Virus record (IMG/VR): IMGVR_UViG_3300026194_000306
Length of the DNA: 25,968 nucleotides
From: a virus
Reading direction: 5' to 3' (one strand)
Shown here one piece after another: positions 1,345 through 25,968 of this stretch. The position numbers and the translations under genes were made by a program. Position 1 is the first letter of the stretch. Each line of letters starts with the position of its first letter. Under the pieces are notes generated by a model. That model was not told the origin of the DNA. It worked only from the letters and a program-made list of their open reading frames with translations, and searched no databases.

Positions 1345-1354
1345 TCTTCACCTC
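1256..1354. repeat. 99-bp exact direct repeat, copy 1 (copy 2 at 25870-25968)
   Basis: Base-by-base comparison. Confidence 0.95.
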
Positions 1355-10197: not shown

Positions 10198-10530
10198 TTA
10201 CCCAAATGCGCCGGCGACGTGCTGGGTAATCTGGACGAGATTGTAGACCGGCGGGAGCGTGTAGACCGCGAGCACGGCCAGCCAGGGGTATTTCCCGGAC
10301 CCGGGCCGGAGGAGGTCGCAGGAGGCGGAGCAGAGGAAGGTGCCGGTGATGAGGGCGAGGGCAAACGGCGCTTTGAAGATGGCCTGCATCCAGACCGAGC
10401 CGGCGAGGGGGGCGAGGAGGTAATTTGCTTCGGCCATGCCGAGCCGCGTGAACCAGACGGTTGTGAAGATGTCGGCGGCGAGGAGTGCCAGCAGCAGGGC
10501 CACGTAAAAAAGGGGAGACTTCCGGTTCAT
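10198..10530 (-). CDS. DUF5658-like small membrane protein
   Basis: ADIFTT...G..EAN.L motif, several TM segments. Confidence 0.65.
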   Translation of the reverse strand: MNRKSPLFYVALLLALLAADIFTTVWFTRLGMAEANYLLAPLAGSVWMQAIFKAPFALALITGTFLCSASCDLLRPGSGKYPWLAVLAVYTLPPVYNLVQITQHVAGAFG

Positions 10531-10537
10531 TGCACCG

Positions 10538-10903
10538 TTAGAACTGTTTGTTCAGCAGGATCTGTTCGCTGCCGTCGCTGAAGTGCCCGACGACGAGGAA
10601 CCGGGCCGCTTTCCCGCCGGGGATTACCGAGACGTTCCCTACGGTGAAGTTGTCGGTCTGCGATGCCTTCTCGGTCCCGTTGACGCTGTACGTGATCTCC
10701 ACTAACTGCGCCAGCCCGGATCCGCCCTGAAGGATGGACTCGATACCGTCCGGCACTAACTTTGCGGAGAGCATGACGGTCTTCGTCGTTTCTACGTCGC
10801 CGGCCATGTTCATCACGAAACGGCCGCCAGGATAACGGTGATGGCGACCATCAGGATCACCCCGATCACGGGAGGAAACTGCTTCATCGTTTTTGATGGA
10901 CAT
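10538..10903 (-). CDS. Archaeal type IV pilin (DUF1628-like) with its hydrophobic helix shifted out of frame by two compensating indels
   Basis: MSIKNDEAVS start; the alternative frame over about 10817-10872 reads [18 protein letters not shown]; pilin-like globular domain ending FSDGSEQILLNKQF. Confidence 0.85.
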   Translation of the reverse strand: MSIKNDEAVSSRDRGDPDGRHHRYPGGRFVMNMAGDVETTKTVMLSAKLVPDGIESILQGGSGLAQLVEITYSVNGTEKASQTDNFTVGNVSVIPGGKAARFLVVGHFSDGSEQILLNKQF

Positions 10904-10907
10904 TAAT

Positions 10908-11072
10908 TCACCTCTTCCCACAGGAGAGCCCGTGGTGTTCGCCCCAGAAAATGAGCGCTTTGCGGGCGGCGTCGGACTTGGAGCAGGCGATCCCGCTCTC
11001 GGTGGCTGCTTCGAGGATTTTGGATTCGACGCTGCCGAGCAGGAAGGTTTCTCGTGCGGGGCTCTGTCGCAT
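10908..11072 (-). CDS. 54-aa RHH-like regulator MRQSPARETFLLGSVESKILEAATESGIACSKSDAARKALIFW...
   Basis: Translated by hand; SKSDAARKAL second-helix pattern; directly follows a TATA region. Confidence 0.55.
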   Translation of the reverse strand: MRQSPARETFLLGSVESKILEAATESGIACSKSDAARKALIFWGEHHGLSCGKR

Positions 11073-11291: not shown

Positions 11292-12704
11292 TTACAGATA
11301 CCTCCGATACAGGCTGTAGCCTATGCCGATCATCGCCGCGACCATGAAGGCATACCCGATCTCCGCGAACTGCGGGAGGAGGTAGGGGACGAGCAGACCT
11401 CCGATGAGAGCGGCGACCACGAATGGGACGATCACATCACCACTCCTGAGGAAGAGGATGACAAAGACGAACGCGGAGATGAGGGAGATGAACGCCGCGA
11501 GGCCGAAGTCACCGCCGCCGAAGGGTCGGGCGTAGAGGTCAGCCTCGGCGGTCCAGAAGTCTTCAATGGAGAGGTTGCCGGCCATGAGGGTGTTGAAGAT
11601 GTCGCCGTGGGTGGTGACGGGGGCGGGGGTGAGGGCCGGGAGGCTGAAGGAGACTTCGGGGGAGTAGCCGCCGGCGGTGCCTGCCCGGGCGTAGTAGGTC
11701 TGGCCGCTGATGAGAGGGAGGGAGACGATGGTGGCGGAGTAGTCTGAGGTGTTGGTGGTGATGGTTGAGGACTGATACCCGTATTTTCCGGGGGCGGCGC
11801 CGAGGACGATCCAGACTTCGGGGTAGGGGGTGGAGCCGGAGAGGGTGACGGCCTGCGTGGTGATGTTGCCGGCGTTGATGGTGAGGCCGTCGCAGAGCGG
11901 GTAGTCGGTGCTGTGGACGGGGGTCTGGGTCGGGGTCTGGGTCGGGGTCTGGGTCGGGGTCTGGGTCGGGGTCGGTTCGATTAAACTCCACCGGATTGCC
12001 CGATCGAGGACGTCCTGTGCATCGGCGGTGAGGGTTATTGTGCCGGTTGAGTATAGCCAGCCGATGAAGCCGCAGCGGGCGCCGTATGGGTTGCCGAACA
12101 GATCAGGCGTGTTCTTCTCAATCGCCAATATGGCAATCGATGAGTCGCTAGCACTATACTCTGCGATCCTCGTGCCGACATATCCGTCGGCTCGCGGAGC
12201 CAGCGCCATCCATGTGCTGCTTGAATATATCGAGATTGTGCTCGGCGTCGAATAAGGATCGGTTATGGGGTGCGATGGGGTGTAATCCAAGAGATAATCT
12301 CCGTTTCGGGTATCTACGATAGATAGTTTCCCGACCATACCTAATGTGATCGCTCCTCCTGCTGTGAGTGTCCCTGTTCCTGTGGTGATCCCCGCCCACA
12401 CGGGGATCCCTTTGTCGATGTATGCTCGGATGTACGTGTGTTGCGCTTCCGTACCTGTCCGGGTCAGCACGATCGCATCGTAATTATCCAAGTTTGTCGC
12501 GGTAACGTCTGCTATAGCAATTATCGTGCAGGTATGCCCTTTTGCATCTAGCACCTGTTTGAAGTATACTGGAGATCTGTGTGTGGGGTCTACAGTTACG
12601 ATCGCAATCGTGGCATCCGGTGCATCTGCTAGCGGGTCAGTGGCCGCTACCGTCGGTATGAGGGAGAGGATGATGAGCAAGAGGAGTATTCCTTTCCTCA
12701 TCAT
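11292..12704 (-). CDS. Membrane-anchored spike/adhesin-like protein (signal peptide, N-terminal alpha/beta domain, TQTP linker, FN3-like domain, C-terminal TMs)
   Basis: ORF track trimmed to MMRKGILL at the ATGA overlap; ...GQTYYARAG FN3-like pattern. Confidence 0.8.
   Translation of the reverse strand: MMRKGILLLLIILSLIPTVAATDPLADAPDATIAIVTVDPTHRSPVYFKQVLDAKGHTCTIIAIADVTATNLDNYDAIVLTRTGTEAQHTYIRAYIDKGIPVWAGITTGTGTLTAGGAITLGMVGKLSIVDTRNGDYLLDYTPSHPITDPYSTPSTISIYSSSTWMALAPRADGYVGTRIAEYSASDSSIAILAIEKNTPDLFGNPYGARCGFIGWLYSTGTITLTADAQDVLDRAIRWSLIEPTPTQTPTQTPTQTPTQTPVHSTDYPLCDGLTINAGNITTQAVTLSGSTPYPEVWIVLGAAPGKYGYQSSTITTNTSDYSATIVSLPLISGQTYYARAGTAGGYSPEVSFSLPALTPAPVTTHGDIFNTLMAGNLSIEDFWTAEADLYARPFGGGDFGLAAFISLISAFVFVILFLRSGDVIVPFVVAALIGGLLVPYLLPQFAEIGYAFMVAAMIGIGYSLYRRYL
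11920..11967. repeat. 4 x 12-bp tandem repeat GGGGTCTGGGTC encoding a TQTP linker
   Basis: Read directly from the sequence. Confidence 0.95.
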
Positions 12705-13084
12705 TTCGCCTGCCCCCATCCGAACTTTGAGGCGAGCTGGATCAGGAACGTGGCGATGGAGAGGACGACCACGCACTGAGAGATGGCGGCGACCGGGGCG
12801 GGGACGTGGAAGATATCGACCATCGTGGGGTAGACGTAGACGATGGTGGTGATCATGTCCTGGAGCCAGCCCATGCCGCCGAGGACGGAGGAGACCGCGA
12901 GCCCGACGTAATCTCCGATGCCGAGCGGGCCGGTCTGGCCCGCCAGGGAGGTCATTTCGGAGAGGGTGAAGGTGCTGGTGTCGGGGGCGGCGTAGTAGTT
13001 GTGGCCGAAGACGCCGAGGGCGTTCACCAGGGCGATAGCCGGCCCGCAGAAGGTGAGCAGGGTTAAGATATCGTGGAATCGCAT
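12701..13084 (-). CDS. Membrane protein, putative virion component
   Basis: ORF track; hydrophobic segments; coupled to neighbours. Confidence 0.75.
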   Translation of the reverse strand: MRFHDILTLLTFCGPAIALVNALGVFGHNYYAAPDTSTFTLSEMTSLAGQTGPLGIGDYVGLAVSSVLGGMGWLQDMITTIVYVYPTMVDIFHVPAPVAAISQCVVVLSIATFLIQLASKFGWGQAK

Positions 13085-13088
13085 GGTA

Positions 13089-15662
13089 TCACCGATAAAG
13101 TTTGTACTCCGATTTTCGCATGTAGACGAAGACGCCGATGAACGTGAGGATCCCGATGGGGACGGTGGTGGCGAGCGGGAGCCAGCCGATCAGGGTGGGG
13201 ACGCCGCCGCCGATGAGCGGGATGATGATGGCGCCGAACCGGACCCGTGAGCCGGAGAAGATGGCGCCGATGCCGACGATCCAGATGGCCGAGAGGAGGA
13301 GATACCAGAACTCGTCCTCGAAGCCGAGGTCTACGAGACGGCCGGAGCCGTGGAGGGTGATGCTTCTGGCGGCGCTGATCTCGCCCCGGGTGGCGTGGTT
13401 GGCGTCAAAGCCCCAGGTGTATGAGGTGGGGCGGTTCTCGACGGTGTAGCTGGCGTTGGTCCAGTTGAGGTATTTGGGGGTGAGCGCTTCGGTGTGGACG
13501 TATTCGTCGGCGCCGTCCTTGACCCAGAACAGGAGGGAGGTTGTGGCGTTGTCGCGGTCCTTGTAGGCGAAGCGGAGAGAGACCTGGGTGTCGCCGGCGA
13601 GCGGGACGGCTTCGAGGTTGTAGAGGGGGTGGGTCTCGGCATCTGAGGGGGGCCGGGTGCGGAACTGGATGGTGTACTGGGTCTCCTGGGGGTAGAGGGT
13701 GAAGTTGACGGAGAGGTTCGAGGCGGGGTCGTGGGCGGTGATGGCGTAGCGGACGGTCTCGACCATGGAGAAGGTGATACTGCCATCGGTGCCGGTGGTG
13801 CCCGAGAGGGTGGTTGCGTTGATGTTGACCGATGATGGGATGCCGAGGAGGTCGGAGAACCACGACCACGGGGAGGTGGTTTCGAGGTACTTCGCGGAGA
13901 CGGAGACGTTCGAGAGCGGGAGGCCGAAGTCGTCGATGCAGTGGAACCGGACGTTGTGCGGCGGGTAGTTGGGCATCTCGGCGGGGGTCGCGGGGGGTAG
14001 CCGCTCGGTCAGGAGGATCGTCGCGGTGGTGGTGCCGGGGTTGTTGAGGTACACGGATTGCGCCTGTGGATAGTAACCTGCGGCGACTGCAGTGACGGTG
14101 TAGGGACCGTAGTCGGCGGAGAACGTCGCGGGGTTCTGGGTGCTCTCCTGGCCGTCGCTGAGGGAGATGGTGGCGTTGTGGAGGTTGACGAGCGAGGTGT
14201 CGTCCATGGCGGTGACGGTGAGGAGGAAATGCCCTTTGAGCGCGAGGTTGTAGGGGGTCGCGACGGTTTCGACGGTGACGGGCTCGGAAAGGGCGTCGTG
14301 GAGCGGGGCGGAGGCGGAGATCGTGTAGGCGCCGGGCGTGACGTTGTTGAAGAGGTAGAAGCCGGTTGACGATGTGGTTGTGCTTCCGTAGTCGTCGAGG
14401 GAGACGGTCGCGCCGCTGATCGGCTGCTGGCTGCCCTGGGTCTGGACGTAGCCGTAGAGCATGGACTTTTCGGGCTCGGTGGGGACGTCGGGAGGGGCGT
14501 CGGGAGACATCCAGAGGACGATCGAGGTGCCCTCTACGACCCCGAATACTATTGGTGAGATGAGGGTGTAGTTGGCAGCGGCGGCAGAGGCGTGGTATCT
14601 AAAAGAGGTCGTCTCGGGCAGATTGACAGTGCCAGAGCCCGATGCGAGAGTGATCGATATGGTCTCGTTGGTCTTGGTGTCGAGGATGGCGACCTGGGCG
14701 CCAGCAATGGGGTCGCCTGTTTGGGCGGAGCGGACGGCGACGGGGACTAAGATCGGTTGGTCGAGGGGAGGGGGGTTGACCTCCCAGGAGAGCCTCTCGT
14801 TGGATCCGGTTATTACAGAGATGTTCAGTTTTGGATCCATTAACCATACTCCTGGGATGTGGATATTGACGTCAGTTGAGGCTAATGGGGTGGAATAATA
14901 GGATATGCCGGTGGCGATCTCTGTGATATCCACCGAGGAGAAAAAACCATGCCGATATAGCTGGATATCGTACCCTGTATCGTCGTAAACCACGTGGACC
15001 GTGTTCTTCCACGGCTGTTCGATTAGGTACATATAGCGGCCATATTGCCCGACCGTGTTCGAGACGTCGGAGTATGGAGCCAGAAGAACCCAATTGGACT
15101 GAAATCTATCCGAGGCTGCTGCAAAATCCGGAACAGAGGCATTAATCATCGTGGCGCCGTACGTATTTGGAGTTGGTACAATAGATTTGTTCCACTCCAG
15201 CTGGACATCTTTCCGGCCATTGTACCCGTGTGGGTCGAAATTATTGATCTCATCAATCCACAGGACGACGTTCGTTACTGATCCGCCTTTATCGCGATTT
15301 ATATTGTAGCCGATGCGGCCAGTGAAAATCACATTAGACTCTATAGTCCCTGTAACCGAGGTGGTGCCGGCATCAGGGTACCCTTCTACCCCATAACTAA
15401 TATGATCGTATACCACCGCAACGTGTTTTAGCCCGGAGAAGTCCTCAATGTTTTTGAAACGCAGGGCGGAGAATCCCACAGGGCCTCCACTCGATTTATA
15501 CGTTCCGTATTCATCATATGAGTACGAGGCGTCGAATGTGTGGGACGCCTCGTATCCTATAACCGAGGGTATGAGGAGGAGCGACGCTATGAGTAGCAGC
15601 ATCAGCCTGCGCCGAACTGCCCCTCGTGCGGGGGGAGGGGGGGTGGGGTGGTTGCCAGTCAT
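13089..15662 (-). CDS. 857-aa spike/tail-like protein with CarboxypepD_reg/PEGA-like beta-sandwich repeats and C-terminal TMs
   Basis: Signal peptide; QQPISGATVSL...TTTSSTGFYLFNNVTPGAYTISASAP motif and related repeats; three C-terminal TM segments. Confidence 0.85.
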   Translation of the reverse strand: MTGNHPTPPPPARGAVRRRLMLLLIASLLLIPSVIGYEASHTFDASYSYDEYGTYKSSGGPVGFSALRFKNIEDFSGLKHVAVVYDHISYGVEGYPDAGTTSVTGTIESNVIFTGRIGYNINRDKGGSVTNVVLWIDEINNFDPHGYNGRKDVQLEWNKSIVPTPNTYGATMINASVPDFAAASDRFQSNWVLLAPYSDVSNTVGQYGRYMYLIEQPWKNTVHVVYDDTGYDIQLYRHGFFSSVDITEIATGISYYSTPLASTDVNIHIPGVWLMDPKLNISVITGSNERLSWEVNPPPLDQPILVPVAVRSAQTGDPIAGAQVAILDTKTNETISITLASGSGTVNLPETTSFRYHASAAAANYTLISPIVFGVVEGTSIVLWMSPDAPPDVPTEPEKSMLYGYVQTQGSQQPISGATVSLDDYGSTTTSSTGFYLFNNVTPGAYTISASAPLHDALSEPVTVETVATPYNLALKGHFLLTVTAMDDTSLVNLHNATISLSDGQESTQNPATFSADYGPYTVTAVAAGYYPQAQSVYLNNPGTTTATILLTERLPPATPAEMPNYPPHNVRFHCIDDFGLPLSNVSVSAKYLETTSPWSWFSDLLGIPSSVNINATTLSGTTGTDGSITFSMVETVRYAITAHDPASNLSVNFTLYPQETQYTIQFRTRPPSDAETHPLYNLEAVPLAGDTQVSLRFAYKDRDNATTSLLFWVKDGADEYVHTEALTPKYLNWTNASYTVENRPTSYTWGFDANHATRGEISAARSITLHGSGRLVDLGFEDEFWYLLLSAIWIVGIGAIFSGSRVRFGAIIIPLIGGGVPTLIGWLPLATTVPIGILTFIGVFVYMRKSEYKLYR

Positions 15663-15663
15663 C

Positions 15664-15927
15664 TCACCGCACCTCCCGGCGATACCGCACCCGGGCGATC
15701 ACGCTCTGCCAGACCCAGACGATGGCGACGATGGCGACGGCGATGACCAGGGCGTAGAAGAATTTGGCGAGCAGATACCAGGAGTCGGCGTAGGGGTTGG
15801 GGCCGCTGGCGCTGATGTAGAGGGTGAACCAGTCAAAGACCGGGCCGAAGCCGAGCACGAGGGCGAAGAGGCCGATGATGGTGAAGAGCCCGGTGATGAT
15901 CGGCACTACGATAGGATAATCGCTCAT
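15664..15927 (-). CDS. Two-helix hydrophobic hairpin protein, putative minor capsid protein
   Basis: Two long hydrophobic segments and a basic C-terminus. Confidence 0.7.
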   Translation of the reverse strand: MSDYPIVVPIITGLFTIIGLFALVLGFGPVFDWFTLYISASGPNPYADSWYLLAKFFYALVIAVAIVAIVWVWQSVIARVRYRREVR

Positions 15928-15929
15928 TT

Positions 15930-16214
15930 TCAGACATCTCCGTCATTCTCTGCGTTTGCGGTCACGATGGCGTAGAGGCCGAGCGGGAGGATCACGGCGA
16001 TGATGAGGAAGATCCCGAAGATGAGGTTGAGGTTCGCCATGCAGTTCTGCCGGTCGAGGGATACGGGGAAGACGGGGTTGCTGTACTGGTCTGCAAACTG
16101 CCCGTTGAACGTGTCCACTACTGGGCCGGCGGCGATGTAAATGAAGCCGACCAGGAGAAGGATGATGGCGAGCGTGGCGAGGACGCCGATGGATCCCCGG
16201 TCATTCTGCATCAC
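15930..16214 (-). CDS. Two-helix hairpin protein with a class III-like leader (QNDRG/SIGV), putative minor capsid protein
   Basis: Short charged leader followed by hydrophobic helix, loop, hydrophobic helix. Confidence 0.7.
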   Translation of the reverse strand: MMQNDRGSIGVLATLAIILLLVGFIYIAAGPVVDTFNGQFADQYSNPVFPVSLDRQNCMANLNLIFGIFLIIAVILPLGLYAIVTANAENDGDV

Positions 16215-16422
16215 GGTCGCCCCCGGGCGGAGTTGGGGCCGGGGTCGGAGCGATGCCGTAGTCCCGGCGGATGTCTTCGAGCGTGGTCCGGACGACTTCC
16301 GGGCCGGCCTGGTAGGTGTCGATGAGCAGGCCGAGCACGGTTGAGAGCCGGGCGCGGTAGGCGGCAGAGTTGGCGATCGCTGCCGTCTCTTCTTCGGTGT
16401 AGAGGGTCTTGTCGGTCATCAT
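16201..16422 (-). CDS. Small hypothetical protein
   Basis: ORF track; overlaps both neighbours. Confidence 0.65.
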   Translation of the reverse strand: MMTDKTLYTEEETAAIANSAAYRARLSTVLGLLIDTYQAGPEVVRTTLEDIRRDYGIAPTPAPTPPGGDRDAE

Positions 16423-17921
16423 CGCTTCCTCCGCTTTGCGGGTTTCTTTCTGGGGGTGGGGGAGGGGGAGAGGCCGAGGAACTCACGCGGGGTGGCGACG
16501 CGGAGGTTCTCCCAGAACGCGGTCTCGGCTTTGCTGCCGCGGCCGCCCTTCTTCTTTCTCTTCGTGGGGTCGCGGTCCCGGCGCCGGGTCTGGTCGATGA
16601 AGGGGGTCTCGAAGGGGAACTCGTTGGGGAAGCTCGGTGGGTATGGGTAGTCTACGGGGTTCTGGAGCGGGTTCTGGAAGACGGTGGTGTCGGGGTATGC
16701 GGTCTCGGGGATGGTGATGTCAGTGGTGGTGGAGGTGGGGATCGCCATAGAGAGCGGGGCGGTCATCGGGGCGAAGGTAGACCGGGCGGCGAAGAGGTCG
16801 GCGGTCAGGTCGGCGGTTGCGTCCCGGGTGCCGGCTTCGGCGAGGTTGAGTGTCTTCGTCCAGGTGGCTATGTCGGGTTTGGTGGCGGTCTCCGGCCGGG
16901 GCGTGAAGATGTAGCGGACGGTCTCTTCGCCGGGGTGGATGGCCGGGACTTCCGGGGACGGGGCCTGAATGAAGGGGGTGTCTTCGTCGGCGACGAACCC
17001 CCGGGGGCCGGTCGGGAAGACGTTGGGGAAGGCGTCCGGGAAGGCGGAGGGGCCGCCGAACGGGGACGGGCTGGGGATCGCTTCGGTGGCGTGGAACCGG
17101 GCTTCTGTCCGGGGACGGGTGAGGACCTCGGCGCCGCCGGGGCTCCATGCGTCGGCACGGGGCTGGATCTCGGCGAGGTCGTTTCTGAGGGTGATCTCGC
17201 GGGTGCCGATCGGGGTGGTGGGTCCCTGAAGCACGAGCCGGGAGACGCGGTCGCCGGTGCCGAGTTCGGCCTGCCCGGGGTCCCAGGTGGAGTGTGGGAT
17301 GGGGCCGGGACCGAGGACGTAGGGGTTGCGGCCGCCGCCGATCTCGGGTCCGGGGCGGCCGGTGGGGAACTGCGGGCCGGGGTCCGGGAAGGCGGGGCCG
17401 ATCTCGTTGGCGAGGGCGATCGGGAGCATGGTGCCGGCGGCGGTTGCGGCCGCTGTGGCGCCCTGCTGGACGACTGCGGGGGCGGTGCGGGTGGCGAGTC
17501 CCAGAGCGGCTCCGCCGCCGGTGCGGATGATGCCGGACGCGGCCGGACCTGCTGCGGCGACGGCCCCGCCGCCACCGAGGAGGGCAGCACCGCCGGCGAC
17601 GCCGGTGATCAGGCTGGCGCCGATGAGACCGCCCTTCACCATCTCCATGGGGCGGGCGGCGAACTCTTCCCGGGCCCGGGGGATCGCGGGGTTGATGGCC
17701 CGGGCGGGGGCGGTGAGGAGGTCCATGCGGGAGCCGACGATGTGGCCGGCGAAGGCAGGACCGGCCCGGAGAGCGATGTCTAACGGAGTGGAGCGCGTGG
17801 GCGTGGGGGCCGGGGTCGGCGTGGTCTGGGGAGTCGGTCGGAGCTGGGGCTGCTGCTGTGGGCGGCGGGAGGTTGCCGCCCGTACGAGGTGAGGAGCCAG
17901 GGGGATGAGGAGCGGTAACAT
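16419..17921 (-). CDS. 500-aa Pro/Thr/Ala-rich protein with a strongly basic C-terminus, putative internal virion protein
   Basis: ORF track; GGAGG RBS; ends ...RRRDRDPTKRKKKGGRG...RKKPAKRRKR. Confidence 0.75.
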   Translation of the reverse strand: MLPLLIPLAPHLVRAATSRRPQQQPQLRPTPQTTPTPAPTPTRSTPLDIALRAGPAFAGHIVGSRMDLLTAPARAINPAIPRAREEFAARPMEMVKGGLIGASLITGVAGGAALLGGGGAVAAAGPAASGIIRTGGGAALGLATRTAPAVVQQGATAAATAAGTMLPIALANEIGPAFPDPGPQFPTGRPGPEIGGGRNPYVLGPGPIPHSTWDPGQAELGTGDRVSRLVLQGPTTPIGTREITLRNDLAEIQPRADAWSPGGAEVLTRPRTEARFHATEAIPSPSPFGGPSAFPDAFPNVFPTGPRGFVADEDTPFIQAPSPEVPAIHPGEETVRYIFTPRPETATKPDIATWTKTLNLAEAGTRDATADLTADLFAARSTFAPMTAPLSMAIPTSTTTDITIPETAYPDTTVFQNPLQNPVDYPYPPSFPNEFPFETPFIDQTRRRDRDPTKRKKKGGRGSKAETAFWENLRVATPREFLGLSPSPTPRKKPAKRRKR

Positions 17922-18638
17922 CTACGTCTTCCCTCCGAAGAGGTAGATAACTCCCATGATCAGGCAGATCCCGATCTCCACCGCGACGAGGGCCTTCATC
18001 CAGCCGGGCCAGGAGCCCGTTTTGAGGTCGTCGGTCTCCTCGGCGACGCGCTCGGCGATGTGCCCTTCGAGGTCGCCGGCGCCGATGTGCGGGAGGTATC
18101 GCTCTATCTCGTAGAGCGGGACCTCCGTGACTGCCGGCATCAGGATCGGGTCGGCAATCTTCCCGGCTTTGATGAGGTCGTAGAGGTCTTTGTAGTCGGC
18201 GATCTGCTCGCTCTCGGTGTGGGTCTCGTTCCAGTCGAGGATGGCGGCCTTCACGGCGGCCTGGAGCTTCGGGTCGGTGGCGATCCCCCAGGTGTCGAGG
18301 AAGATCTTGGCGTTGACGGCGCCGAAGCGGTGAGAGTCGGGGGAACGCTGGATCCACGAGAGCGGGAGGCCGACGGCGTTGAACACGCCGGCAACGTAGT
18401 CCATGGCATAGAACCGCATCCGGCCGCTCTTGAGGCAGACGATACCGAGGTCGGTGTTGGTGCGGGAGGCCCGGAAGTAGCCGGAGACAGGCCCCATGGT
18501 CCACCAGTACCAGATCCAGAGGGCGTTGCTGAAGAGGATGACGAGGCCGAGCACTACGAAGCCCCAGATGAACCAGGGAAGGCCGAGGATCATTCCGCCG
18601 ACCTCGGCGCCGGTTGGAGTGACAGTTATGGTTGACAT
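17922..18638 (-). CDS. Membrane protein with N- and C-terminal TMs
   Basis: ORF track; GAGGT RBS. Confidence 0.8.
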   Translation of the reverse strand: MSTITVTPTGAEVGGMILGLPWFIWGFVVLGLVILFSNALWIWYWWTMGPVSGYFRASRTNTDLGIVCLKSGRMRFYAMDYVAGVFNAVGLPLSWIQRSPDSHRFGAVNAKIFLDTWGIATDPKLQAAVKAAILDWNETHTESEQIADYKDLYDLIKAGKIADPILMPAVTEVPLYEIERYLPHIGAGDLEGHIAERVAEETDDLKTGSWPGWMKALVAVEIGICLIMGVIYLFGGKT

Positions 18639-18641
18639 GAG

Positions 18642-19127
18642 TTAACCTCGCTTGAGGAAGGAGAGGAAGCCGCCGCCGTCGTTCCGGGGCGGGAGGGGGC
18701 GGTCGTCCCGCAGGGTCTGGGTCAGGCGGTTCTCGTTGAGGGCGTCCCGCTCCCGGCTGTGCCGGGTGTAGCCGATGGATTTTCCTGCCAGGATGTCGCA
18801 GAAGGCGAGTTTCGCCATCCGCTGCTGGAGGTAGTCGTCGGCGTCCCAGGTGGCGACACGGAGGATGCTGGTGGTGGCCCGCCGGAACTTGCGGTGCGCT
18901 TCGGGGGTCGGGATGTTCGTGAGTTCGACGTGGCGGGCGACGGCCCCGGAGAAGAGCCAGAGGTCTTCCAGGGTGCCGCCGTCTGGGATGTCGGGGTCGA
19001 GGAGCATTGAGAGGGACTGCTCGGCGATGGAGGGGCCGCTCTGGGGGAGCGGGCGGTTCGGGTCGTTCACTCGCCGGACCAGGGCTTCGTAGTCTTCCGC
19101 AGATACTTCTACAGGCATGTGTTTCAC
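18642..19127 (-). CDS. Hypothetical morphogenesis protein
   Basis: ORF track; GAGGTGA RBS; ATGA overlap. Confidence 0.75.
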   Translation of the reverse strand: MKHMPVEVSAEDYEALVRRVNDPNRPLPQSGPSIAEQSLSMLLDPDIPDGGTLEDLWLFSGAVARHVELTNIPTPEAHRKFRRATTSILRVATWDADDYLQQRMAKLAFCDILAGKSIGYTRHSRERDALNENRLTQTLRDDRPLPPRNDGGGFLSFLKRG

Positions 19128-19606
19128 CTCAGTGGGGGCATTTCGCCGGCTTCCATCAGCTTCGCGTCCCGGATGGGGCGGAAGTAGTCTTCCCAGATCA
19201 CCCGGATCATGTTGACGACGCTGATCACGGTGATGAGCAGGAGGAGATATGGGAGGTAGGGCGGATGGGTGACGATTTCGACGGGGACGACGTAGATCGC
19301 GCCGTCGATGACTTCGATATGCGTGGTGGGGAAGGCGATGGCGGTGGAGAGGTAAGCGGCGGCCGCTGAGAAGACGAATGCCAGGAGAGCCCAGAGGTCG
19401 TGAGCGCTGATGCCGGTCCAGAGCGAGAGGAAGAGGAAGATGAACGGGGCGATGGCGAGCGGGAGCCAGATCTGGAACGGGAGGTATGCGACGTCAGCGG
19501 GGAGGATGGTGGTTGTGTTCGTGGCGGTGACGTTGACGGCGGCGGCTGGCGCGATAAGGAGGAGGAGTGTGAGAACGAAGAGGGGGAAAATAGGTCGGAG
19601 GTGCAT
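19124..19606 (-). CDS. Multi-pass membrane protein with a signal peptide
   Basis: ORF track; GGAGG RBS. Confidence 0.8.
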   Translation of the reverse strand: MHLRPIFPLFVLTLLLLIAPAAAVNVTATNTTTILPADVAYLPFQIWLPLAIAPFIFLFLSLWTGISAHDLWALLAFVFSAAAAYLSTAIAFPTTHIEVIDGAIYVVPVEIVTHPPYLPYLLLLITVISVVNMIRVIWEDYFRPIRDAKLMEAGEMPPLR

Positions 19607-19621
19607 GTGATGCCTCCGGGC

Positions 19622-19975
19622 CTACTTGTTCCGCGGCGTGAACAGGAACAGCACACCGAGGATACCGGCCGCTGCCATGATGATCAGCACGATCGCCAGG
19701 AGGCCGTAACCGCTCTGGGTCGTGGTCGCGAGCGACTGCTGGAGCGTGTACCAGGCCGAAGACTCGTTGAGTGCCGGCGTGCTGGCTTCGACGTTTGCCA
19801 GGATGATAACGCCCATGGCCATCACGATCGCCGTGACGATGAAGCCGAGAACCAGGTTGACGTTACCGTCTTCGTTGTCGATGCGGAGCTTCTGGAATGC
19901 GGCACGAGCGCCGCAGGTCTGGACGACCGCGAGCTGCTCCCGGGCGTATGCGGTGTACTTCTTGATCAGGGACAT
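19622..19975 (-). CDS. Putative major capsid protein, spindle-virus-type helical hairpin
   Basis: Charged leader ending NEDG, two hydrophobic helices, loop with N-glycosylation sequon NES, own promoter and GAGGTGA RBS. Confidence 0.65.
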   Translation of the reverse strand: MSLIKKYTAYAREQLAVVQTCGARAAFQKLRIDNEDGNVNLVLGFIVTAIVMAMGVIILANVEASTPALNESSAWYTLQQSLATTTQSGYGLLAIVLIIMAAAGILGVLFLFTPRNK

Positions 19976-20042
19976 CAGATATCACCTCGCATAGTTAGAA
20001 ATGAAGATATATAGGTATATATAGATGATTTAGAACTATATT
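19976..20042 (-). promoter_or_regulatory. AT-rich promoter of the capsid gene cluster
   Basis: TATATACCTATATAT on the minus strand upstream of the RBS. Confidence 0.6.
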
Positions 20043-21140
20043 CTAATTAGATGCGACGGCGCACGGGGCGGCGCCGGATCTGATGTCTGTTTTATCCGGG
20101 GGCTCTGCATCTTCGGTTTTTATCACCGGCGGCTGGTTGGGGATGCGTGTGAACGGCATCCGGCCGAACCGCTCTTTTGGCTCTTCGAGGATGGCCCAGC
20201 CGGCCCGGGGGAGGGTGCCGATGAGGCGGGGGTTTACCATGCTCACGCGGGGTTTCGGGCGGCTGCCCCGGAGCCAGATGTAATAGGAGAGCCGGTCGGT
20301 GACCCGGTAATCTACGTCGTTGGTGTCCTGGGTGCCGATGTTCATGGAGACGTTGTTTTTCCGGAATGAGATCATCGTCTCGGAGAACCAGCCGATCAGA
20401 TGCCAGAGATCCCCGCGGGAGTTGGAGGGGAAGACCTGGTGCGCCTCGTCGAGGTCGATAAGGAAGAACTCGTCCCGGTATTTGATGCGGATGAGGGTTT
20501 CGAGAAACTCGAACCACCAGATCGGCGAGGGGGCGCGGATGGGGCCGTCCGGCCGTTTCCGGGTGGAGAGGAGGTTGTTCGCGGCGATCCGGTCGAGGAC
20601 GTCTTTGGGGAGGTAATACTGTTTCGGCTCGTAGACTACGTTGACGCCGCCGCGGAGCAGGTTGTCATAGAGTTCTTCGGGAGAACTGTAGTAGGTCAGC
20701 TCTTCGAGCGGTTTGAACTGGATCCGGTATTTCTTCTGGTCGCGTTCTTCGGTCCAGATCCGGTGGTCTTTGTAGAAGACGTGGACGCGGAGAGGTTTGA
20801 CGACCTGGGCTTCGGGGAAGGACTCCCGGAAGTTCTCCGGGATCAGGCAGTTCCAGTGGTCGTGTGCCAGGCCGCGGTGAATGACTGTTTCGGGGTAGCG
20901 GGTCGCCCGCGGGCTGTCCTTCGAGTGGGGCGCGGGGATGCAGGTGGCGGCGGCGGCCAGCTGCAGCATGAGGGTGCTCTTGCCGCTGCCGAACTTCCCG
21001 ACCAGGCCGGTCATGGTGCCGCCGTATGCGGCTACCCCGTCGTCGTGGGTGACGATCTCGTAGGCCATGCGGCGGCCCTTGGCGGCCGAGACCCGTTTGA
21101 GGGCTTCGGAGAGTTGCTCCTCGGCGACGGTGGCGGTCAT
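20043..21140 (-). CDS. P-loop ATPase of the FtsK/HerA superfamily (Zot/pI- or A32-like morphogenesis ATPase)
   Basis: Walker A GKFGSGKST, Walker B LIDLDEAH, FRK...IGTQ, D.DYRV pattern. Confidence 0.85.
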   Translation of the reverse strand: MTATVAEEQLSEALKRVSAAKGRRMAYEIVTHDDGVAAYGGTMTGLVGKFGSGKSTLMLQLAAAATCIPAPHSKDSPRATRYPETVIHRGLAHDHWNCLIPENFRESFPEAQVVKPLRVHVFYKDHRIWTEERDQKKYRIQFKPLEELTYYSSPEELYDNLLRGGVNVVYEPKQYYLPKDVLDRIAANNLLSTRKRPDGPIRAPSPIWWFEFLETLIRIKYRDEFFLIDLDEAHQVFPSNSRGDLWHLIGWFSETMISFRKNNVSMNIGTQDTNDVDYRVTDRLSYYIWLRGSRPKPRVSMVNPRLIGTLPRAGWAILEEPKERFGRMPFTRIPNQPPVIKTEDAEPPDKTDIRSGAAPCAVASN

Positions 21141-21526
21141 CTCTCGGCGTCCTCCTCTGCGGGCTTCTTCCGGTTCATGAAGAGGTCGGAGAAGTATTGG
21201 TCTACGGACTGGATGCTGATGAGGTCTTCTTCGAGGCAGATGGTGACGAAGTAGTCGAGGATATCGGAGACCTTGGCGATGACCTGCGGCCAGGCGGTCT
21301 CGTCGGCGGCAAACGCGATGGCCTGGTTATCCCATGCCTGACGCCAGGCGAGGAAATTCTGGAGGAACTCCGGCGGCAACTTTCCGCGCTTTTTTTTCAG
21401 GGCGGCTGATGAGAGCGTCATCACGGAGCGGCAGAGCCGGAGCGATTGCGCCGGTTCTGTGCTGATGGCGGTGAGGACGATCACCCGGCCGAGGGCCTCT
21501 TTGTAGTCGTTGGGGATTGCTGCCAT
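21137..21526 (-). CDS. Hypothetical helical protein coupled to the ATPase
   Basis: ORF track; ATGA overlap; TATA upstream. Confidence 0.75.
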   Translation of the reverse strand: MAAIPNDYKEALGRVIVLTAISTEPAQSLRLCRSVMTLSSAALKKKRGKLPPEFLQNFLAWRQAWDNQAIAFAADETAWPQVIAKVSDILDYFVTICLEEDLISIQSVDQYFSDLFMNRKKPAEEDAER

Positions 21527-21682
21527 GATACTATATAGATGTTGGCCCCTGCTATATATACCGTTGCTGACCTATGGCGCACATTAAGCGAAGGAAAAAG
21601 GGAAGAACCGGGGAGCGGCGGCGGCGCGGCGCGGCATGGGCTTAAAAAGTCGATCAGAATCTAAAAAGAAGAGAAAAGAGGA

Positions 21683-22180
21683 TCAGCGTTTGCGCTTGCT
21701 GGTCTTGCTGGACTTGCGCTTCTTCGGGGCTGAGGCCGAGCCGCCGAAGGGATCGTAGTTGTCGATGCTGCCGAAGTTGCCGAGGTTGCCGAGCCCGGAG
21801 GATCCGCCGGCACCGCCGAAGGCGTCGAAGCTCGAGTTGAAGTTCTGGCCGGCGTCGGCGAGCGTGCCGAGGAACCCGGAGGACTGTTGCCGGGCCTTCT
21901 GTTCTTTGGGGGAGAACTTCCCGATCCGGGGGTTGGTTTCGAACCTGGCGAGGGTCTCGGACGCCTTCTCGACGGACTCCTCTGAGTTCAGGTTGACGTC
22001 GATGTAGCGGTCTCCCTGGGGGAGGATGTAGCGGCCGGAAGTGGTCGGGTCCCGGCGGACGTTGTGCCGCTTGATGAGCTCGGCTTCCCGGGCGGACCGG
22101 GTGCGGGCGGCGGTGGCTTCCTCCTCCCGGCGGGCTCGGTGCTCACCGGCCCAGTTGCGGATATTTCCTAGGATACCCAT
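21683..22180 (-). CDS. Gly/Ser-rich protein with a basic C-terminal tail, putative DNA-binding virion protein
   Basis: ORF track; ends APKKRKSSKTSKRKR. Confidence 0.7.
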   Translation of the reverse strand: MGILGNIRNWAGEHRARREEEATAARTRSAREAELIKRHNVRRDPTTSGRYILPQGDRYIDVNLNSEESVEKASETLARFETNPRIGKFSPKEQKARQQSSGFLGTLADAGQNFNSSFDAFGGAGGSSGLGNLGNFGSIDNYDPFGGSASAPKKRKSSKTSKRKR

Positions 22181-22318
22181 ACTTGAATATGTGGACTATA
22201 GAGACTATTAATTTTCTCTATAGTTGCCCGGATCGGAGCCGTCCGGGACGGCTACGGCATCCTTAAAGAGGTTCCGCGACCTATAGTTGTGGCGCAGAGA
22301 TTTTGATAGGGCCATACT

Positions 22319-22381
22319 AGTGTAGTGGTCACAATCTCAACGCACCCCCGTAGAGTGATACGAGATTGTGACCACTACACT
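22319..22381. repeat. Perfect 20-bp inverted repeat with a 23-nt spacer, upstream of the integrase
   Basis: AGTGTAGTGGTCACAATCTC 22319-22338 / GAGATTGTGACCACTACACT 22362-22381. Confidence 0.95.
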
Positions 22382-22410
22382 TATGGGGCTCTAGAGGCAT
22401 TCTCCTTTTC

Positions 22411-23682
22411 ATGAGCACGTTTCGTTACCGCGACCGGCCGGAGTACCGGGCGTCTATCCTCCGGCAGGCGGTTGATGACGGGAGGCTGTCGAGCCGGGAG
22501 AGTGATCTGATACAACAGTTCCTGGCAGAGCGCCGGGCGAAGAAGGGGCTCTCGCAGGGAAGGTTGTCCCTTTACACCCATCACCTGATCAGGATCCGGG
22601 ACTTCGTGCCGTGTGCCTACCCGGAGATGGCTGCCCTGGACTTGATGATGTGCGTGAACAGTATCTCGGACGGGGTTTCCCAGAAGGGGGTGCCGTTTTC
22701 GCAGAACACGAAGCACGACTATATCCTGACTCTGAAGATTTTTACGCGGTGGATGGTCGAGCGGGGGATCGTCGATATCCCTCTGTCCGAGGTGAAGGAG
22801 ATTGATGTTCCCCGGCAGCCGCGGGCGACGAAGACCGCGGACGACATGCTATCCGACAAGGAGATCCTTGTTGTGATGGGGGCCTGCGGGAACTCGAAGG
22901 AGCGGGCGATGGTCTCGACGGTGTATGATGCGGCGTTGCGGATCGAGGAACTTCAGGATCTCCGGTGGGGGCGGATAGCACGGCTGAAGCACGGCGTGGC
23001 GATCACGACGGATAAGAAGACCGGATACCAAAGGCGGATCCCCTGCACGGTGTGCGGGTCGTACCTGACGGCCTGGCGGAACGATTACCCGGGGGACGCG
23101 ACGGGGGAGAACTTCGTGTTCATCACGAAGGACCTGGAGCCGTACATGTATAGCGGGTTCCAGTACGTCCTGAAGAAGATCCGGAAGCGGCTGAGGGACC
23201 AGGGGCACGGGGAGATCGCGGATAAGTTAGGCTGGCACGTCCTGCGACATGCCCGACTGACGGAGTTTGTCCGCCGGGGGATGTCGGAGACGACGCTCGG
23301 TCAGATCGGGTGGGGGCATCGCTCCTCGATGATCGAGTGCTACGTACACATGAGCAGGGACGATATCGAACGGGAGGTGCTGGCGATTGCCGGTATCAAG
23401 GACGATCAGGCCGAGCGCCCGACGCCGGTGTTCGTGCCCGGGGTCTGCCCGGTGTGTGCATGCACGGATGTCCCGCCGACCGCGTTGTACTGTCCGTCGT
23501 GCCGGTCGCCGCTGACGGAGGAGGCACGGGAGGAGGCTGAGCGGCTGGACCGGGAGACGTCTGACCTTGAGATCCTGCGGGTGCTGCAGGACCCGGTGCA
23601 GCGGGAGTTGTTCCTGTCGATTGTGGATCGGATGCGGAGGGAGGAGGAGGCGCGGGAGGCGCAGGAGGGGGTGAAAGAGTAA
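22411..23682 (+). CDS. Tyrosine recombinase/integrase with an N-terminal CB domain and a C-terminal double Zn ribbon
   Basis: DAALRIEE (R), KKT (K), HVLRH, GWGH, ECYVH (Y); CPVC...CPSC. Confidence 0.93.
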   Translation: MSTFRYRDRPEYRASILRQAVDDGRLSSRESDLIQQFLAERRAKKGLSQGRLSLYTHHLIRIRDFVPCAYPEMAALDLMMCVNSISDGVSQKGVPFSQNTKHDYILTLKIFTRWMVERGIVDIPLSEVKEIDVPRQPRATKTADDMLSDKEILVVMGACGNSKERAMVSTVYDAALRIEELQDLRWGRIARLKHGVAITTDKKTGYQRRIPCTVCGSYLTAWRNDYPGDATGENFVFITKDLEPYMYSGFQYVLKKIRKRLRDQGHGEIADKLGWHVLRHARLTEFVRRGMSETTLGQIGWGHRSSMIECYVHMSRDDIEREVLAIAGIKDDQAERPTPVFVPGVCPVCACTDVPPTALYCPSCRSPLTEEAREEAERLDRETSDLEILRVLQDPVQRELFLSIVDRMRREEEAREAQEGVKE

Positions 23683-25826: not shown

Positions 25827-25958
25827 TCACCTACGCACAGTCTTCGAGCAGTCCCACGATTGATGCACAAACGCGGCCTCCTCGGTCGAAAACCGGCGAC
25901 CGCAGACCCGGCACCGATATCCGGCCGGGAGTTCTTCGATCTTCAGTTTGGCTTTCAC
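25827..25958 (-). CDS. 43-aa Zn-finger protein, copy 2 (MKAKLK...VHQSWDCSKTVRR)
   Basis: Translated by hand; 5' part identical to 1183-1344. Confidence 0.75.
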   Translation of the reverse strand: MKAKLKIEELPAGYRCRVCGRRFSTEEAAFVHQSWDCSKTVRR

Positions 25959-25968
25959 TCTTCACCTC
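25870..25968. repeat. 99-bp exact direct repeat, copy 2
   Basis: Identical to 1256-1354. Confidence 0.95.

What the first reader, a model, noticed from the sequence alone, without database searches (positions are those of the whole stretch)
15664..19975. Spindle-virus-like capsid set with pilin-type leaders in a probable Methanomicrobiales virus
Seen: three helical-hairpin hydrophobic proteins (19622-19975, 15930-16214, 15664-15927). Two have leaders ending NEDG and NDRG before the first helix, paralleling the pilin NDEA, and the largest has an NES sequon in its loop. Established: SSV1 and His1-type major capsid proteins are two-helix hydrophobic hairpins, and SSV1 VP1 is N-terminally processed and glycosylated. 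Inference: a spindle-shaped or otherwise extruded virus, likely of an undescribed lineage, that may use the host prepilin peptidase to mature its capsid proteins. That would also give the disabled pilin a context.
Basis: partly seen in the sequence, partly recalled or inferred. Interest (0 to 1): 0.72.

Follow-up and report, generated by a model that had tools for sequence, protein, structure and literature searches.

The report
Spindle-type methanogen virus with pilin-like capsid leader
This roughly 25 kb virus-like element from methane-producing bioreactors carries one capsid protein of the kind that builds lemon-shaped archaeal viruses, and its removable front end looks like the signal the host's own pilin-cutting enzyme recognises, which suggests a testable answer to how such capsid proteins are matured.

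Summary
All three small proteins have two strongly hydrophobic helices, and the NEDG and NDRG leaders and the NES loop sequon sit where stated and are conserved in relatives.

Only the 117-aa protein (19622-19975) is capsid-like. A profile of its 153-member family picks TPV1 gp15 out of 522 ORFs of four spindle viruses (28 bits; 0 of 2000 hydropathy-preserving shuffles reach it). SSV1 VP1 is a marginal second (p about 0.04). The adjacent ATPase belongs to the PAV1 ORF375 family (E 1e-35). The same profile ignores the 94-aa and 87-aa hairpins, so a three-protein capsid set is not shown.

The pilin-type leader idea gains sequence support. The residue before helix 1 is G or A in 95% of family members and usually follows a charged residue. 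Some relatives carry the methanogen-type K-G-Q, and SSV1 and SSV19 VP1 have K-G and R-A at the known cut. Strict FlaFind rules are not met and the leader is long. Cleavage is untested.

The whole module recurs in a genome of the order that holds Methanolinea MAGs. I read it as a new, family-level spindle-type virus lineage of probable Methanomicrobiales hosts.

The parts
19622..19975 (-). Major capsid protein candidate, 117 aa. It has a roughly 37-aa variable leader, a conserved E-D-G|N junction, helix 1, a loop with the NES sequon (N70), helix 2 and a short basic tail.
   Evidence: hydropathy; 27 homologues; hairpin model; 218 clusters; TPV1 gp15: 28 bits, 0/2000 shuffles; G/A 95%; loop sequon 129/150 against 75.5 expected.
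20043..21140 (-). P-loop ATPase, 365 aa, PAV1 ORF375 family (Walker A GSGKST, Walker B LDEA). Probable morphogenesis or DNA-handling ATPase.
   Evidence: phrog_22963 E 1.2e-35, which is the PHROG of PAV1 ORF375 itself. tblastn hit to PAV1 at 2e-10. Family profile against PAV1 ORF375 at 7e-25. Alignment.
21137..21526 (-). 129-aa soluble helical-bundle protein. Its stop overlaps the ATPase start, and it is conserved with the ATPase.
   Evidence: Synteny in L004, L005, L011, L006 and G023. Model pLDDT 85. No match to PAV1-137.
21683..22180 (-). 165-aa first gene of the operon, Gly-rich with a Lys/Arg-rich C-terminal tail. Possible DNA-binding protein (inference only).
   Evidence: Sequence; conserved in G023 (43% identity).
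19124..19606 (-). 160-aa membrane protein with an N-terminal signal-like segment and three further hydrophobic segments.
   Evidence: Syntenic in all relatives.
18642..19127 (-). 161-aa soluble conserved protein of unknown role.
17922..18638 (-). 238-aa protein with N- and C-terminal membrane helices. It is the best conserved module protein (74% identity in G023).
16419..17921 (-). 500-aa Pro/Ala/Gly-rich, low-complexity protein with a Lys/Arg-rich C-terminus.
   Evidence: GC 0.74 in this stretch.
16201..16422 (-). 73-aa small soluble protein.
15930..16214 (-). 94-aa (probably 93-aa, starting at the ATG at 16211) two-helix membrane protein with a short M-Q-N-D-R-[GA]|S leader. Possible minor virion protein. 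It is not a paralogue of the capsid protein.
   Evidence: N4, D5, S8, G10 invariant; not matched by the capsid profile.
15664..15927 (-). 87-aa two-helix membrane protein without a leader, with a conserved GPNPY loop and RYRRE tail.
   Evidence: The TrbL_4 hit (E 0.004) is below cut-off.
13089..15662 (-). 857-aa surface protein with a signal peptide, CarboxypepD_reg/prealbumin-like repeats, many sequons and C-terminal membrane helices. Probable adhesin or tail-fibre protein.
   Evidence: Pfam PF13620 at 1.5e-16; variable N-terminal half in G023.
12701..13084 (-). 127-aa membrane protein lying between the two surface-protein genes.
   Evidence: 70% identity in G023.
11292..12776 (-). 494-aa second surface protein with a signal peptide, a TQTP linker and a C-terminal membrane anchor.
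   Evidence: The relative in L012 has PKD/DUF2341 domains at this position.
10538..10960 (-). Accessory type IV pilin gene (Pilin_N type, leader MSIKNDEA|VS). Its hydrophobic helix is thrown out of frame by two compensating frameshifts.
   Evidence: Three-frame translation. Intact orthologue at L012:8508-8882 with PF07790. Variants in other samples.
22411..23682 (+). Tyrosine recombinase (integrase), 423 aa, divergent from the structural operon.
   Evidence: PF00589 at 5e-15. Orthologous position in L011.

Best explanation
The region is the morphogenetic operon of a roughly 25 kb double-stranded DNA virus, or virus-derived element, of methanogens, probably Methanomicrobiales. It belongs to the class of archaeal spindle-shaped viruses built from a small hydrophobic helical-hairpin capsid protein.

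Shown:
- The 117-aa protein is a member of a large family of about 75-130-aa two-helix proteins that includes TPV1 gp15.
- It sits next to a PAV1 ORF375-type ATPase, in a conserved 14-gene module rich in membrane proteins, with two large membrane-anchored surface proteins.

Inferred mechanism:
1. The capsid protein is inserted in the host membrane with the N-terminal leader and the basic C-terminal tail in the cytoplasm and the loop outside.
2. The loop's conserved N-x-S/T is N-glycosylated.
3. The variable leader is cut off at the conserved charged-[G/A] junction directly before helix 1. The most likely agent is the host class III signal (prepilin) peptidase, which works at exactly that membrane face.
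4. The mature roughly 80-aa hairpins then assemble around the DNA and the particle leaves without lysis.
5. The 857-aa and 494-aa proteins serve as adhesins.

The 94-aa protein has a short pilin-like leader and may be a second substrate. It and the 87-aa protein are membrane proteins of unknown role, not capsid paralogues.

My odds: virus with a spindle-type capsid protein about 0.8; leader removed at all about 0.6; removed by the prepilin peptidase about 0.35-0.4.
For: Capsid homology:
- The family profile scores TPV1 gp15 at E 4e-8 and 28 bits with bias 0, the best of 522 ORFs.
- 0 of 2000 block shuffles that keep local hydropathy reach that score (maximum 20.6).
- hhalign gives 61% probability over 70 columns spanning both helices and the sequon.
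- SSV1 VP1 is second best (E 6e-4).
- Two or three family members hit the SSV VP1/VP3 PHROGs, and 20 hit a PHROG labelled 'virion structural protein'.
- The nearest Pfam-bearing clusters in the language-model atlas are VP1_VP3 and His1_capsid (0.85 and 0.84; a lead only).
- Specificity control: no other ORF of the window, including the other hairpins, scores with the profile.

ATPase.

Module:
- Full synteny in L004, L005, L011 and G023.
- Relatives carry integrases and exchangeable replication genes, as described for spindle viruses (PMC12934983).

Leader:
- Variable length and sequence against a conserved core, as in fusellovirus VP1 (PMC5748691).
- About a sixth of relatives start directly at helix 1 (27 of 153).
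- The column at G37 is G or A in 135 of 142 sequences, and the preceding column is charged in 72%.
- [KR]GQ occurs in 14 of 153 sequences against 2 of 153 reversed controls.
- SSV1 has K-G and SSV19 has R-A just before the conserved Glu.
- The element's own Pilin_N gene has the leader N-D-E-A|V-S.
- All three MAGs carrying relatives encode Peptidase_A24.

Loop sequon: present in 129 of 150 members against 75.5 expected.

Host and habitat.
Against: - No virion, protein or cleavage data exist.
- Homology rests on one solid link (TPV1 gp15). That gp15 is TPV1's major capsid protein is from my memory of Gorlas 2012 and Krupovic 2014, which the library does not hold; the record calls it 'membrane protein'.
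- SSV1 VP1 is only marginal (82 of 2000 shuffles reach its score). His1 VP21 and PAV1 ORF121 are not detected. Pfam VP1_VP3 and His1_capsid do not match the family, although they also miss TPV1 gp15 and PAV1 ORF121.
- Fold searches are non-discriminating.
- Against the peptidase step: the strict FlaFind pattern fits only 8 of 153 members (4 of 153 in the reversed control). The +1 residue here is Asn. The 37-aa leader is long for a class III signal peptide.
- An alternative alignment puts the conserved Glu (E35) opposite the mature N-terminal Glu of SSV1 VP1. That would place the cut two residues earlier, after a non-G/A residue.
- Host assignment rests on MAG binning. The G023 contig looks wholly viral.
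Confidence: 0.6

Rival explanations
1. It is a spindle-type virus, but the leader is not a prepilin-peptidase substrate. Either it is removed by another, still unknown protease at the conserved Glu, as is assumed for fusellovirus VP1, or it stays on as a cytoplasmic scaffolding or DNA-contact helix. On this reading the conserved G/A is only a helix-junction residue.
For: - hhalign of the close family against SSV1 VP1 aligns E35 with the mature N-terminal Glu and N-V-N with N-I-G.
- E35 is near-invariant in the close family.
- The strict FlaFind pattern fails.
- The leader is 20-37 aa long and modelled as a helix continuous with helix 1.
- The SSV1 literature names no protease (PMC5748691).
Against: - Family-wide, the G/A column (95%) is far better conserved than the Glu column (62 of 130).
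- K-G-Q relatives lack the Glu altogether.
- In SSV1 and SSV19 the residues before the Glu are themselves K-G and R-A. A cut 'at the Glu' is therefore also a cut after charged-G/A.
- The cut must be made on the cytoplasmic face next to the helix, which is class III geometry.
Confidence: 0.3
2. It is not a spindle virus but another membrane-based mobile element, such as a pleolipovirus-like vesicle virus or a plasmid spread by vesicles. On this reading small membrane proteins, a large spike-like type I membrane protein and an NTPase form an enveloped particle.
For: - The gene content resembles pleolipoviruses in outline: small two-helix membrane proteins, a large C-terminally anchored surface protein, one P-loop NTPase and an integrase.
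- PAV1 ORF375-type ATPases also occur on Thermococcus plasmids (PMC3603647).
Against: - No module protein matches any pleolipovirus family in PHROGs.
- The only hits in the phage collection are to PAV1.
- The hairpin family profile matches TPV1 gp15 specifically.
- Gene order differs from the VP3-VP4-ORF6-ORF7-VP8 block (from memory).
Confidence: 0.07
3. It is a conjugative or pilus-forming element. On this reading the 117-aa protein is a VirB2/TrbC-like pilin with a long cleaved leader and two hydrophobic helices.
For: - VirB2-type pilins have the same layout: a long leader and two helices.
- There are weak hits. TrbL_4 matches the 87-aa protein at E 0.004, below cut-off, and TrbC matches 1 of 116 family members at E 0.0013.
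Against: - No VirB4, VirD4 or VirB6-like gene turned up in the window ORFs scanned.
- The only ATPase in the module is 365 aa and of the PAV1 ORF375 family.
- The Pfam hits are at the level of many unrelated membrane families.
- No VirB2, CedA1 or TedC structure appears among the fold matches (inconclusive).
Confidence: 0.03

Closest known systems
Thermococcus prieurii virus 1 (TPV1), gp15 hairpin protein and its structural module
   Same: - gp15 (112 aa) has the same layout: a roughly 30-aa basic leader, helix 1, a loop with an N-S-T sequon, helix 2 and a short tail.
- It is the one statistically solid homologue.
- In both, the hairpin gene heads a run of small membrane proteins, an ATP-binding protein and two large membrane-anchored surface proteins.
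   Different: - Identity is about 20%.
- The TPV1 ATPase gp20 is a different family (phrog_38691).
- TPV1 surface proteins are concanavalin-like lectins, whereas here they have CarboxypepD_reg/prealbumin repeats.
- The host is a hyperthermophilic Thermococcus, not a mesophilic methanogen.
- No other module gene is shared.
Pyrococcus abyssi virus 1 (PAV1), ORF375 P-loop ATPase
   Same: The ATPases are clearly homologous over about 330 residues. In both, a roughly 130-aa helical protein is encoded directly upstream (PAV1-137 and the 129-aa protein).
   Different: - The PAV1 capsid protein ORF121 is not detectably related to the 117-aa family.
- The 129-aa protein shows no sequence or fold match to PAV1-137.
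- Gene order differs. Here the ATPase directly precedes the capsid gene.
Fusellovirus VP1 (SSV1, SSV19), the processed and glycosylated hairpin capsid protein
   Same: - A variable-length, poorly conserved N-terminal extension is removed just before helix 1, next to conserved residues (PMC5748691).
- Charged-G/A lies directly before the cut (K-G in SSV1, R-A in SSV19).
- The mature size is about 73-80 aa.
- There are loop sequons.
- A DUF5658 protein is encoded in both genomes.
   Different: - Sequence similarity is only marginal, and Pfam VP1_VP3 does not match.
- There is no VP3-type paralogue, no SSV-type integrase and no DnaA-like B251 ATPase.
- The host phylum is different.
Archaeal class III signal peptides (type IV pilins and archaellins cut by PibD/FlaK/EppA)
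   Same: - G/A at -1 and a charged residue at -2, with the cut on the cytoplasmic side directly before a hydrophobic helix.
- The acidic N-[DE]-x-[AG] form matches the Pilin_N leader encoded by the same element.
- Some relatives have the K-G-Q form (the link of K-G-Q to EppA substrates is from memory).
   Different: - The substrate would be a two-helix hairpin that stays in the membrane or capsid, not a one-helix pilin with a globular domain.
- The leader is long (37 aa).
- Asn is at +1.
- The strict FlaFind pattern is mostly not met.
Metagenomic spindle viruses of methanogens (Methanosarcina spindle-shaped virus 1, Eurekaviridae; contig C1359 of Methanobacteriales)
   Same: Both come from anaerobic digesters and were assigned by a hairpin capsid protein (PMC9796341, PMC12451623).
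   Different: - Those were linked to His1 and SSV1 capsid proteins by HHpred, and one has a protein-primed polymerase.
- This lineage has a PAV1-type ATPase and a tyrosine recombinase, and it points to Methanomicrobiales.
- In the papers I read, no spindle virus is reported for that order.
- I did not compare sequences directly.

Membership tests
Spindle-virus hairpin major capsid proteins (SSV1 VP1 / His1 VP21 / TPV1 gp15 class) | Small protein whose mature core is two hydrophobic helices joined by a short loop | tested here: met
   Hydropathy, AlphaFold2 hairpin, and 150 of 153 family members with two or more hydrophobic segments.
Spindle-virus hairpin major capsid proteins (SSV1 VP1 / His1 VP21 / TPV1 gp15 class) | Detectable homology to an accepted capsid protein of an isolated spindle virus | tested here: met
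   TPV1 gp15: 28 bits, E 4e-8, 0/2000 shuffles; hhalign 61% probability. SSV1 VP1 is marginal (p about 0.04). His1 VP21 and PAV1 ORF121 are not detected. That gp15 is TPV1's capsid protein is from memory.
Spindle-virus hairpin major capsid proteins (SSV1 VP1 / His1 VP21 / TPV1 gp15 class) | Match to the curated Pfam models VP1_VP3 (PF06281) or His1_capsid (PF25665) | tested here: not met
   No member of 116 matched. The models also miss TPV1 gp15 and PAV1 ORF121, so this says little.
Spindle-virus hairpin major capsid proteins (SSV1 VP1 / His1 VP21 / TPV1 gp15 class) | Is the main protein of a spindle-shaped particle | not testable with these tools
   Needs particles, electron microscopy and mass spectrometry.
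Class III signal peptide (prepilin-peptidase substrate) | Gly or Ala at -1 with a charged residue at -2 | tested here: met
   G/A in 135 of 142 aligned sequences; the -2 column is K, E, D or R in 72%. In the 94-aa family position 7 is A or G and position 6 is R in over 90%.
Class III signal peptide (prepilin-peptidase substrate) | Short leader followed at once by the hydrophobic helix; FlaFind pattern | tested here: not met
   The leader is 37 aa in the 117-aa protein (median 20 in the family). The strict FlaFind regex fits 8 of 153 against 4 of 153 reversed controls. The 94-aa protein does have a 6-aa leader.
Class III signal peptide (prepilin-peptidase substrate) | Cleavage by an A24-family peptidase (PibD/FlaK/EppA) | not testable with these tools
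   Only that the three carrier MAGs each encode Peptidase_A24.
PAV1-like viruses (proposed 'Osirisviridae') | ORF375-type ATPase | tested here: met
PAV1-like viruses (proposed 'Osirisviridae') | ORF121-type capsid protein, ORF137 partner and two concanavalin-like lectin proteins | tested here: not met
   No similarity. The surface proteins carry CarboxypepD_reg domains instead.
Fuselloviridae | VP1 plus VP3 pair, SSV-type integrase, DnaA-like ATPase and core genes | tested here: not met
   Only a marginal VP1 similarity and a weak DUF5658 hit.
Pleolipoviridae | VP3, VP4 spike and VP8 NTPase families | tested here: inconclusive
   No PHROG hit to such families for any module protein. No direct comparison with pleolipovirus sequences was made.
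Conjugative type IV secretion pilin (VirB2/TrbC) | Pilin encoded with VirB4, VirD4 and VirB6 genes | tested here: not met
   No such domains in the window ORFs scanned. TrbC matched 1 of 116 members at noise level.

The most novel reading that the evidence does not exclude
Hairpin capsid proteins of spindle-shaped archaeal viruses may in general be class III signal-peptide proteins matured by the host prepilin peptidase. This would include fusellovirus VP1, whose maturation protease has been unknown for decades. On this reading the virus borrows the host's pilin-processing step, and perhaps more of the type IV filament logic, to prepare a membrane-embedded subunit for extraction into a helical capsid. 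The 94-aa protein and the virus-borne pilin would be further substrates of the same enzyme.
Probability: 0.33. Interest if true: 0.85.

Novelty: new variant of a known kind. Interest (0 to 1): 0.66.

Why it matters
Few viruses of methanogens are known, and in the papers I read no spindle-type virus is reported for Methanomicrobiales, a main methane-producing order in digesters, landfills and wetlands (PMC9796341, PMC12451623). This module recurs in bioreactor, landfill, groundwater and wastewater data. It defines a capsid-protein family of over 200 clusters.

The family also gives a concrete, cheap test for an old question, namely which protease removes the N-terminal extension of spindle-virus capsid proteins. 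A PibD, FlaK or EppA cleavage assay on the precursor would answer it. A re-reading of why a pibD mutant of Sulfolobus islandicus does not support SSV9 (PMC7217056) would bear on it too.

Tried and rejected
- Pattern scans of IMG/VR with the ATPase and with the capsid family found no relative.
- The GTDB genome scan with the ATPase alignment found none. The capsid alignment found four loci.
- tblastn of the 117-aa protein and of a short relative against the phage collection gave nothing useful.
- Foldseek against BFVD and PDB, and VIA-align against 48,161 chains, returned only generic helical hairpins. There was no spindle capsid, pleolipovirus or VirB2 entry among the top rows, so this test cannot decide.
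- I could not identify which viruses make up phrog_16261 ('virion structural protein'). It is absent from the PAV1, SSV1, His1, TPV1 and MetSV records.
- Profiles of the 160-, 161-, 238-, 94- and 87-aa families match nothing in PAV1, TPV1, SSV1, His1 or MetSV.
- The 129-aa protein is not recognisably PAV1-137 by sequence, profile or fold.
- Contigs carrying K-G-Q relatives were too short to show their context.
- Contigs of an RNA library cover parts of the module. Contigs cannot show transcription, so I draw nothing from this.
- The papers on TPV1 (Gorlas 2012) and on the unification of spindle viruses (Krupovic 2014) are not held.
- No paper in the library links prepilin peptidases to virus capsid maturation.

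Full report
**What is there**

The finding lies in a long minus-strand operon (about 11292-22180) of 14 genes. All three reported proteins have exactly two strong hydrophobic segments. The motifs are as described:
- The 117-aa protein reads ...RIDNEDG|NVNLVLGF..., with an NES sequon at N70 in the loop.
- The 94-aa protein reads (M)MQNDRG|SIGVLA...
- The 87-aa protein has no leader.

The features are conserved. In 27 close homologues of the 117-aa protein the leader varies in length and sequence. By contrast, E-[ED]-[AG]-N-[IV], the N-x-S-x-W loop and ATTTQSGYGLLAI in helix 2 are invariant or nearly so. The 94-aa family keeps N4, D5, S8 and G10, with A or G at position 7. AlphaFold2 gives a leader helix plus a hairpin (pLDDT 74).

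**What kind of element**

The 365-aa protein just upstream is a P-loop ATPase of the PAV1 ORF375 family:
- It matches phrog_22963 at E 1e-35. PAV1 ORF375 itself matches that PHROG at 9e-196.
- tblastn of the phage collection finds only PAV1.
- A profile of four orthologues scores ORF375 at 7e-25.

PAV1 is a spindle-shaped virus of Pyrococcus.

The module is conserved gene for gene in metagenome contigs L004, L005 and L011. At 41-74% protein identity it also recurs on a 37.5 kb contig of genome G023.

More distant carriers of the capsid-like gene have integrases, PrimPol, RecT or D5-type primase-helicases. This fits the exchangeable replication modules, the many core membrane proteins and the two membrane-anchored surface proteins described for Thermococcales spindle viruses (PMC12934983). 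Here the surface proteins are the 857-aa protein (CarboxypepD_reg repeats) and the 494-aa protein.

**Is the 117-aa protein a spindle-virus capsid protein?**

A profile search of 1.8 billion representatives found 218 clusters. Nearly all are 70-130-aa two-helix proteins, and many begin right at helix 1 with no leader.

I built an HMM of 153 members and ran it against every ORF of 50 aa or more from PAV1, SSV1, His1 and TPV1 (522 ORFs):
- TPV1 gp15 was best (E 4e-8, 28 bits, bias 0).
- SSV1 VP1 was second (6e-4).
- His1 VP21 scored 0.12.
- PAV1 ORF121 did not score.

Block shuffles that keep local hydropathy never reach the gp15 score (0 of 2000, maximum 20.6). They reach the VP1 score in 82 of 2000 and the VP21 score in 331 of 2000. 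The solid link is therefore gp15, and VP1 is marginal.

hhalign aligns 70 columns with gp15, across both helices and the sequon. As a specificity control, the HMM finds no other ORF in the window and gives under 2 bits to the other two hairpins.

Weaker leads point the same way:
- 20 of 116 members hit a PHROG labelled 'virion structural protein'.
- Three members hit the SSV VP1/VP3 PHROGs.
- The nearest Pfam-bearing atlas clusters are VP1_VP3 and His1_capsid.

Pfam's own two models do not match the family, but they also miss gp15 and ORF121. Fold searches returned only generic hairpins.

That gp15 is TPV1's major capsid protein is from my memory of Gorlas 2012 and Krupovic 2014, which I could not read here. 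The record calls it 'membrane protein'.

**The other two hairpins**

Their profiles match nothing in the four spindle viruses or MetSV, and they are not paralogues of the capsid family. A three-protein capsid set is therefore not shown. They may be minor virion or assembly proteins.

**The leader**

Fusellovirus VP1 proteins have a poorly conserved extension of 15-66 aa. It is cut off at a conserved site by an unknown protease, and the five residues before the cut are essential (PMC5748691). The family here shows the same pattern.

In the 153-member alignment the column of G37 is G or A in 135 of 142 sequences. The column before it is K, E, D or R in 72%. The Glu column is less conserved (62 of 130).

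Fourteen members carry [KR]-G-Q before helix 1, against 2 in reversed controls. From memory, that is the form of methanogen EppA-type prepilins.

SSV1 reads L-T-K-G|E-A-T-N-I-G. SSV19 VP1 (PDB 7XDI) reads L-R-R-A|E-G-F-N-V-G. So charged-G/A also precedes the known cut in fuselloviruses.

Topology adds an argument:
- The loop sequon is enriched (129 of 150 against 75.5 expected), which places the loop outside.
- The leader and the basic tail are then inside.
- Any maturation cut is therefore made at the cytoplasmic face directly before a helix. That is what class III signal peptidases do and what signal peptidase I does not.
- The three MAGs with relatives each encode Peptidase_A24.

Against the idea:
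- The strict FlaFind pattern fits only 8 of 153 members.
- Asn at +1 is unusual.
- The leader is long.
- An alternative alignment puts E35 opposite the mature Glu of VP1.

I found no paper proposing this link. A pibD mutant of S. islandicus does not support SSV9, which its authors ascribe to pili (PMC7217056).

**Host and habitat**

No genome is held for the window. Capsid-gene relatives lie in two Methanolinea MAGs and a 'Methanobacteriota archaeon' MAG, and in 4 of 301 genomes of that order. However, the G023 contig looks wholly viral, so binning is the only link.

The DNA occurs in bioreactor samples (probably the source) and in landfill, groundwater, wastewater and digester runs. A Methanomicrobiales host is probable, not shown.

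**Verdict**

This is a new, probably family-level lineage of spindle-type viruses of methanogens. It is joined to known viruses by only two genes: the capsid protein to TPV1 and the ATPase to PAV1.

The reading is right for one of three proteins and for the kind of virus. The prepilin-peptidase idea survives a first sequence test and is worth a bench test.

Noticed in passing
window 10538-10960 (-); L012:8508-8882: The virus-borne Pilin_N gene has its hydrophobic helix in another frame between two compensating frameshifts, while the intact orthologue in L012 is otherwise near-identical. In other samples the gene body is missing (joint 10532>10905 with 6 other letters, seen in three runs). One landfill contig has indels at 10874 and 10904 that would put the helix back in frame.
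   Followed up: partly
window 1220-1354 and 25834-25968: There is a direct repeat, 91% identical over 135 nt with about 100 nt exact, running to the window's last base. It lies in two diverged copies of a small zinc-ribbon gene. It could mark recombination between alleles or the closure of a circular genome.
   Followed up: partly
window 10198-10530 (-): A 110-aa membrane protein has a weak DUF5658 match (E 6e-4, below cut-off). SSV1 also encodes a DUF5658 protein (SSV-1p18), and L012 has the same gene after its pilin.
   Followed up: no
window 9508-10167 (-): A membrane-anchored CAP/SCP-domain protein (PF00188, E 2.5e-25) lies at the end of the structural operon. This is an unusual passenger for an archaeal virus.
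   Followed up: no
window 22307-22393: A 32-nt inverted repeat (84% complementary, 23 nt apart) lies between the integrase gene and the structural operon. It is a candidate operator or recombination site.
   Followed up: no
window 16419-17921 (-): The 500-aa Pro/Ala/Gly-rich protein gene lies in a stretch of 74% G+C where long ORFs are open in several frames on both strands. It and the 165-aa protein (21683-22180) end in Lys/Arg-rich tails, so they are possible DNA-binding parts.
   Followed up: no
L007, L010, L006, L026/L027 (G023:C2): Relatives that share the capsid gene carry different replication genes: NrS1-type PrimPol, RecT, or a D5_N/DUF5906 primase-helicase with a C5 methylase and a resolvase. 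The window instead has a 410-aa HTH protein (4545-5777).
   Followed up: partly
control line: phrog_16261 ('virion structural protein'), the PHROG hit by 20 family members, also rings in the Methanosarcina acetivorans control genome. This hints at a related provirus gene there.
   Followed up: no
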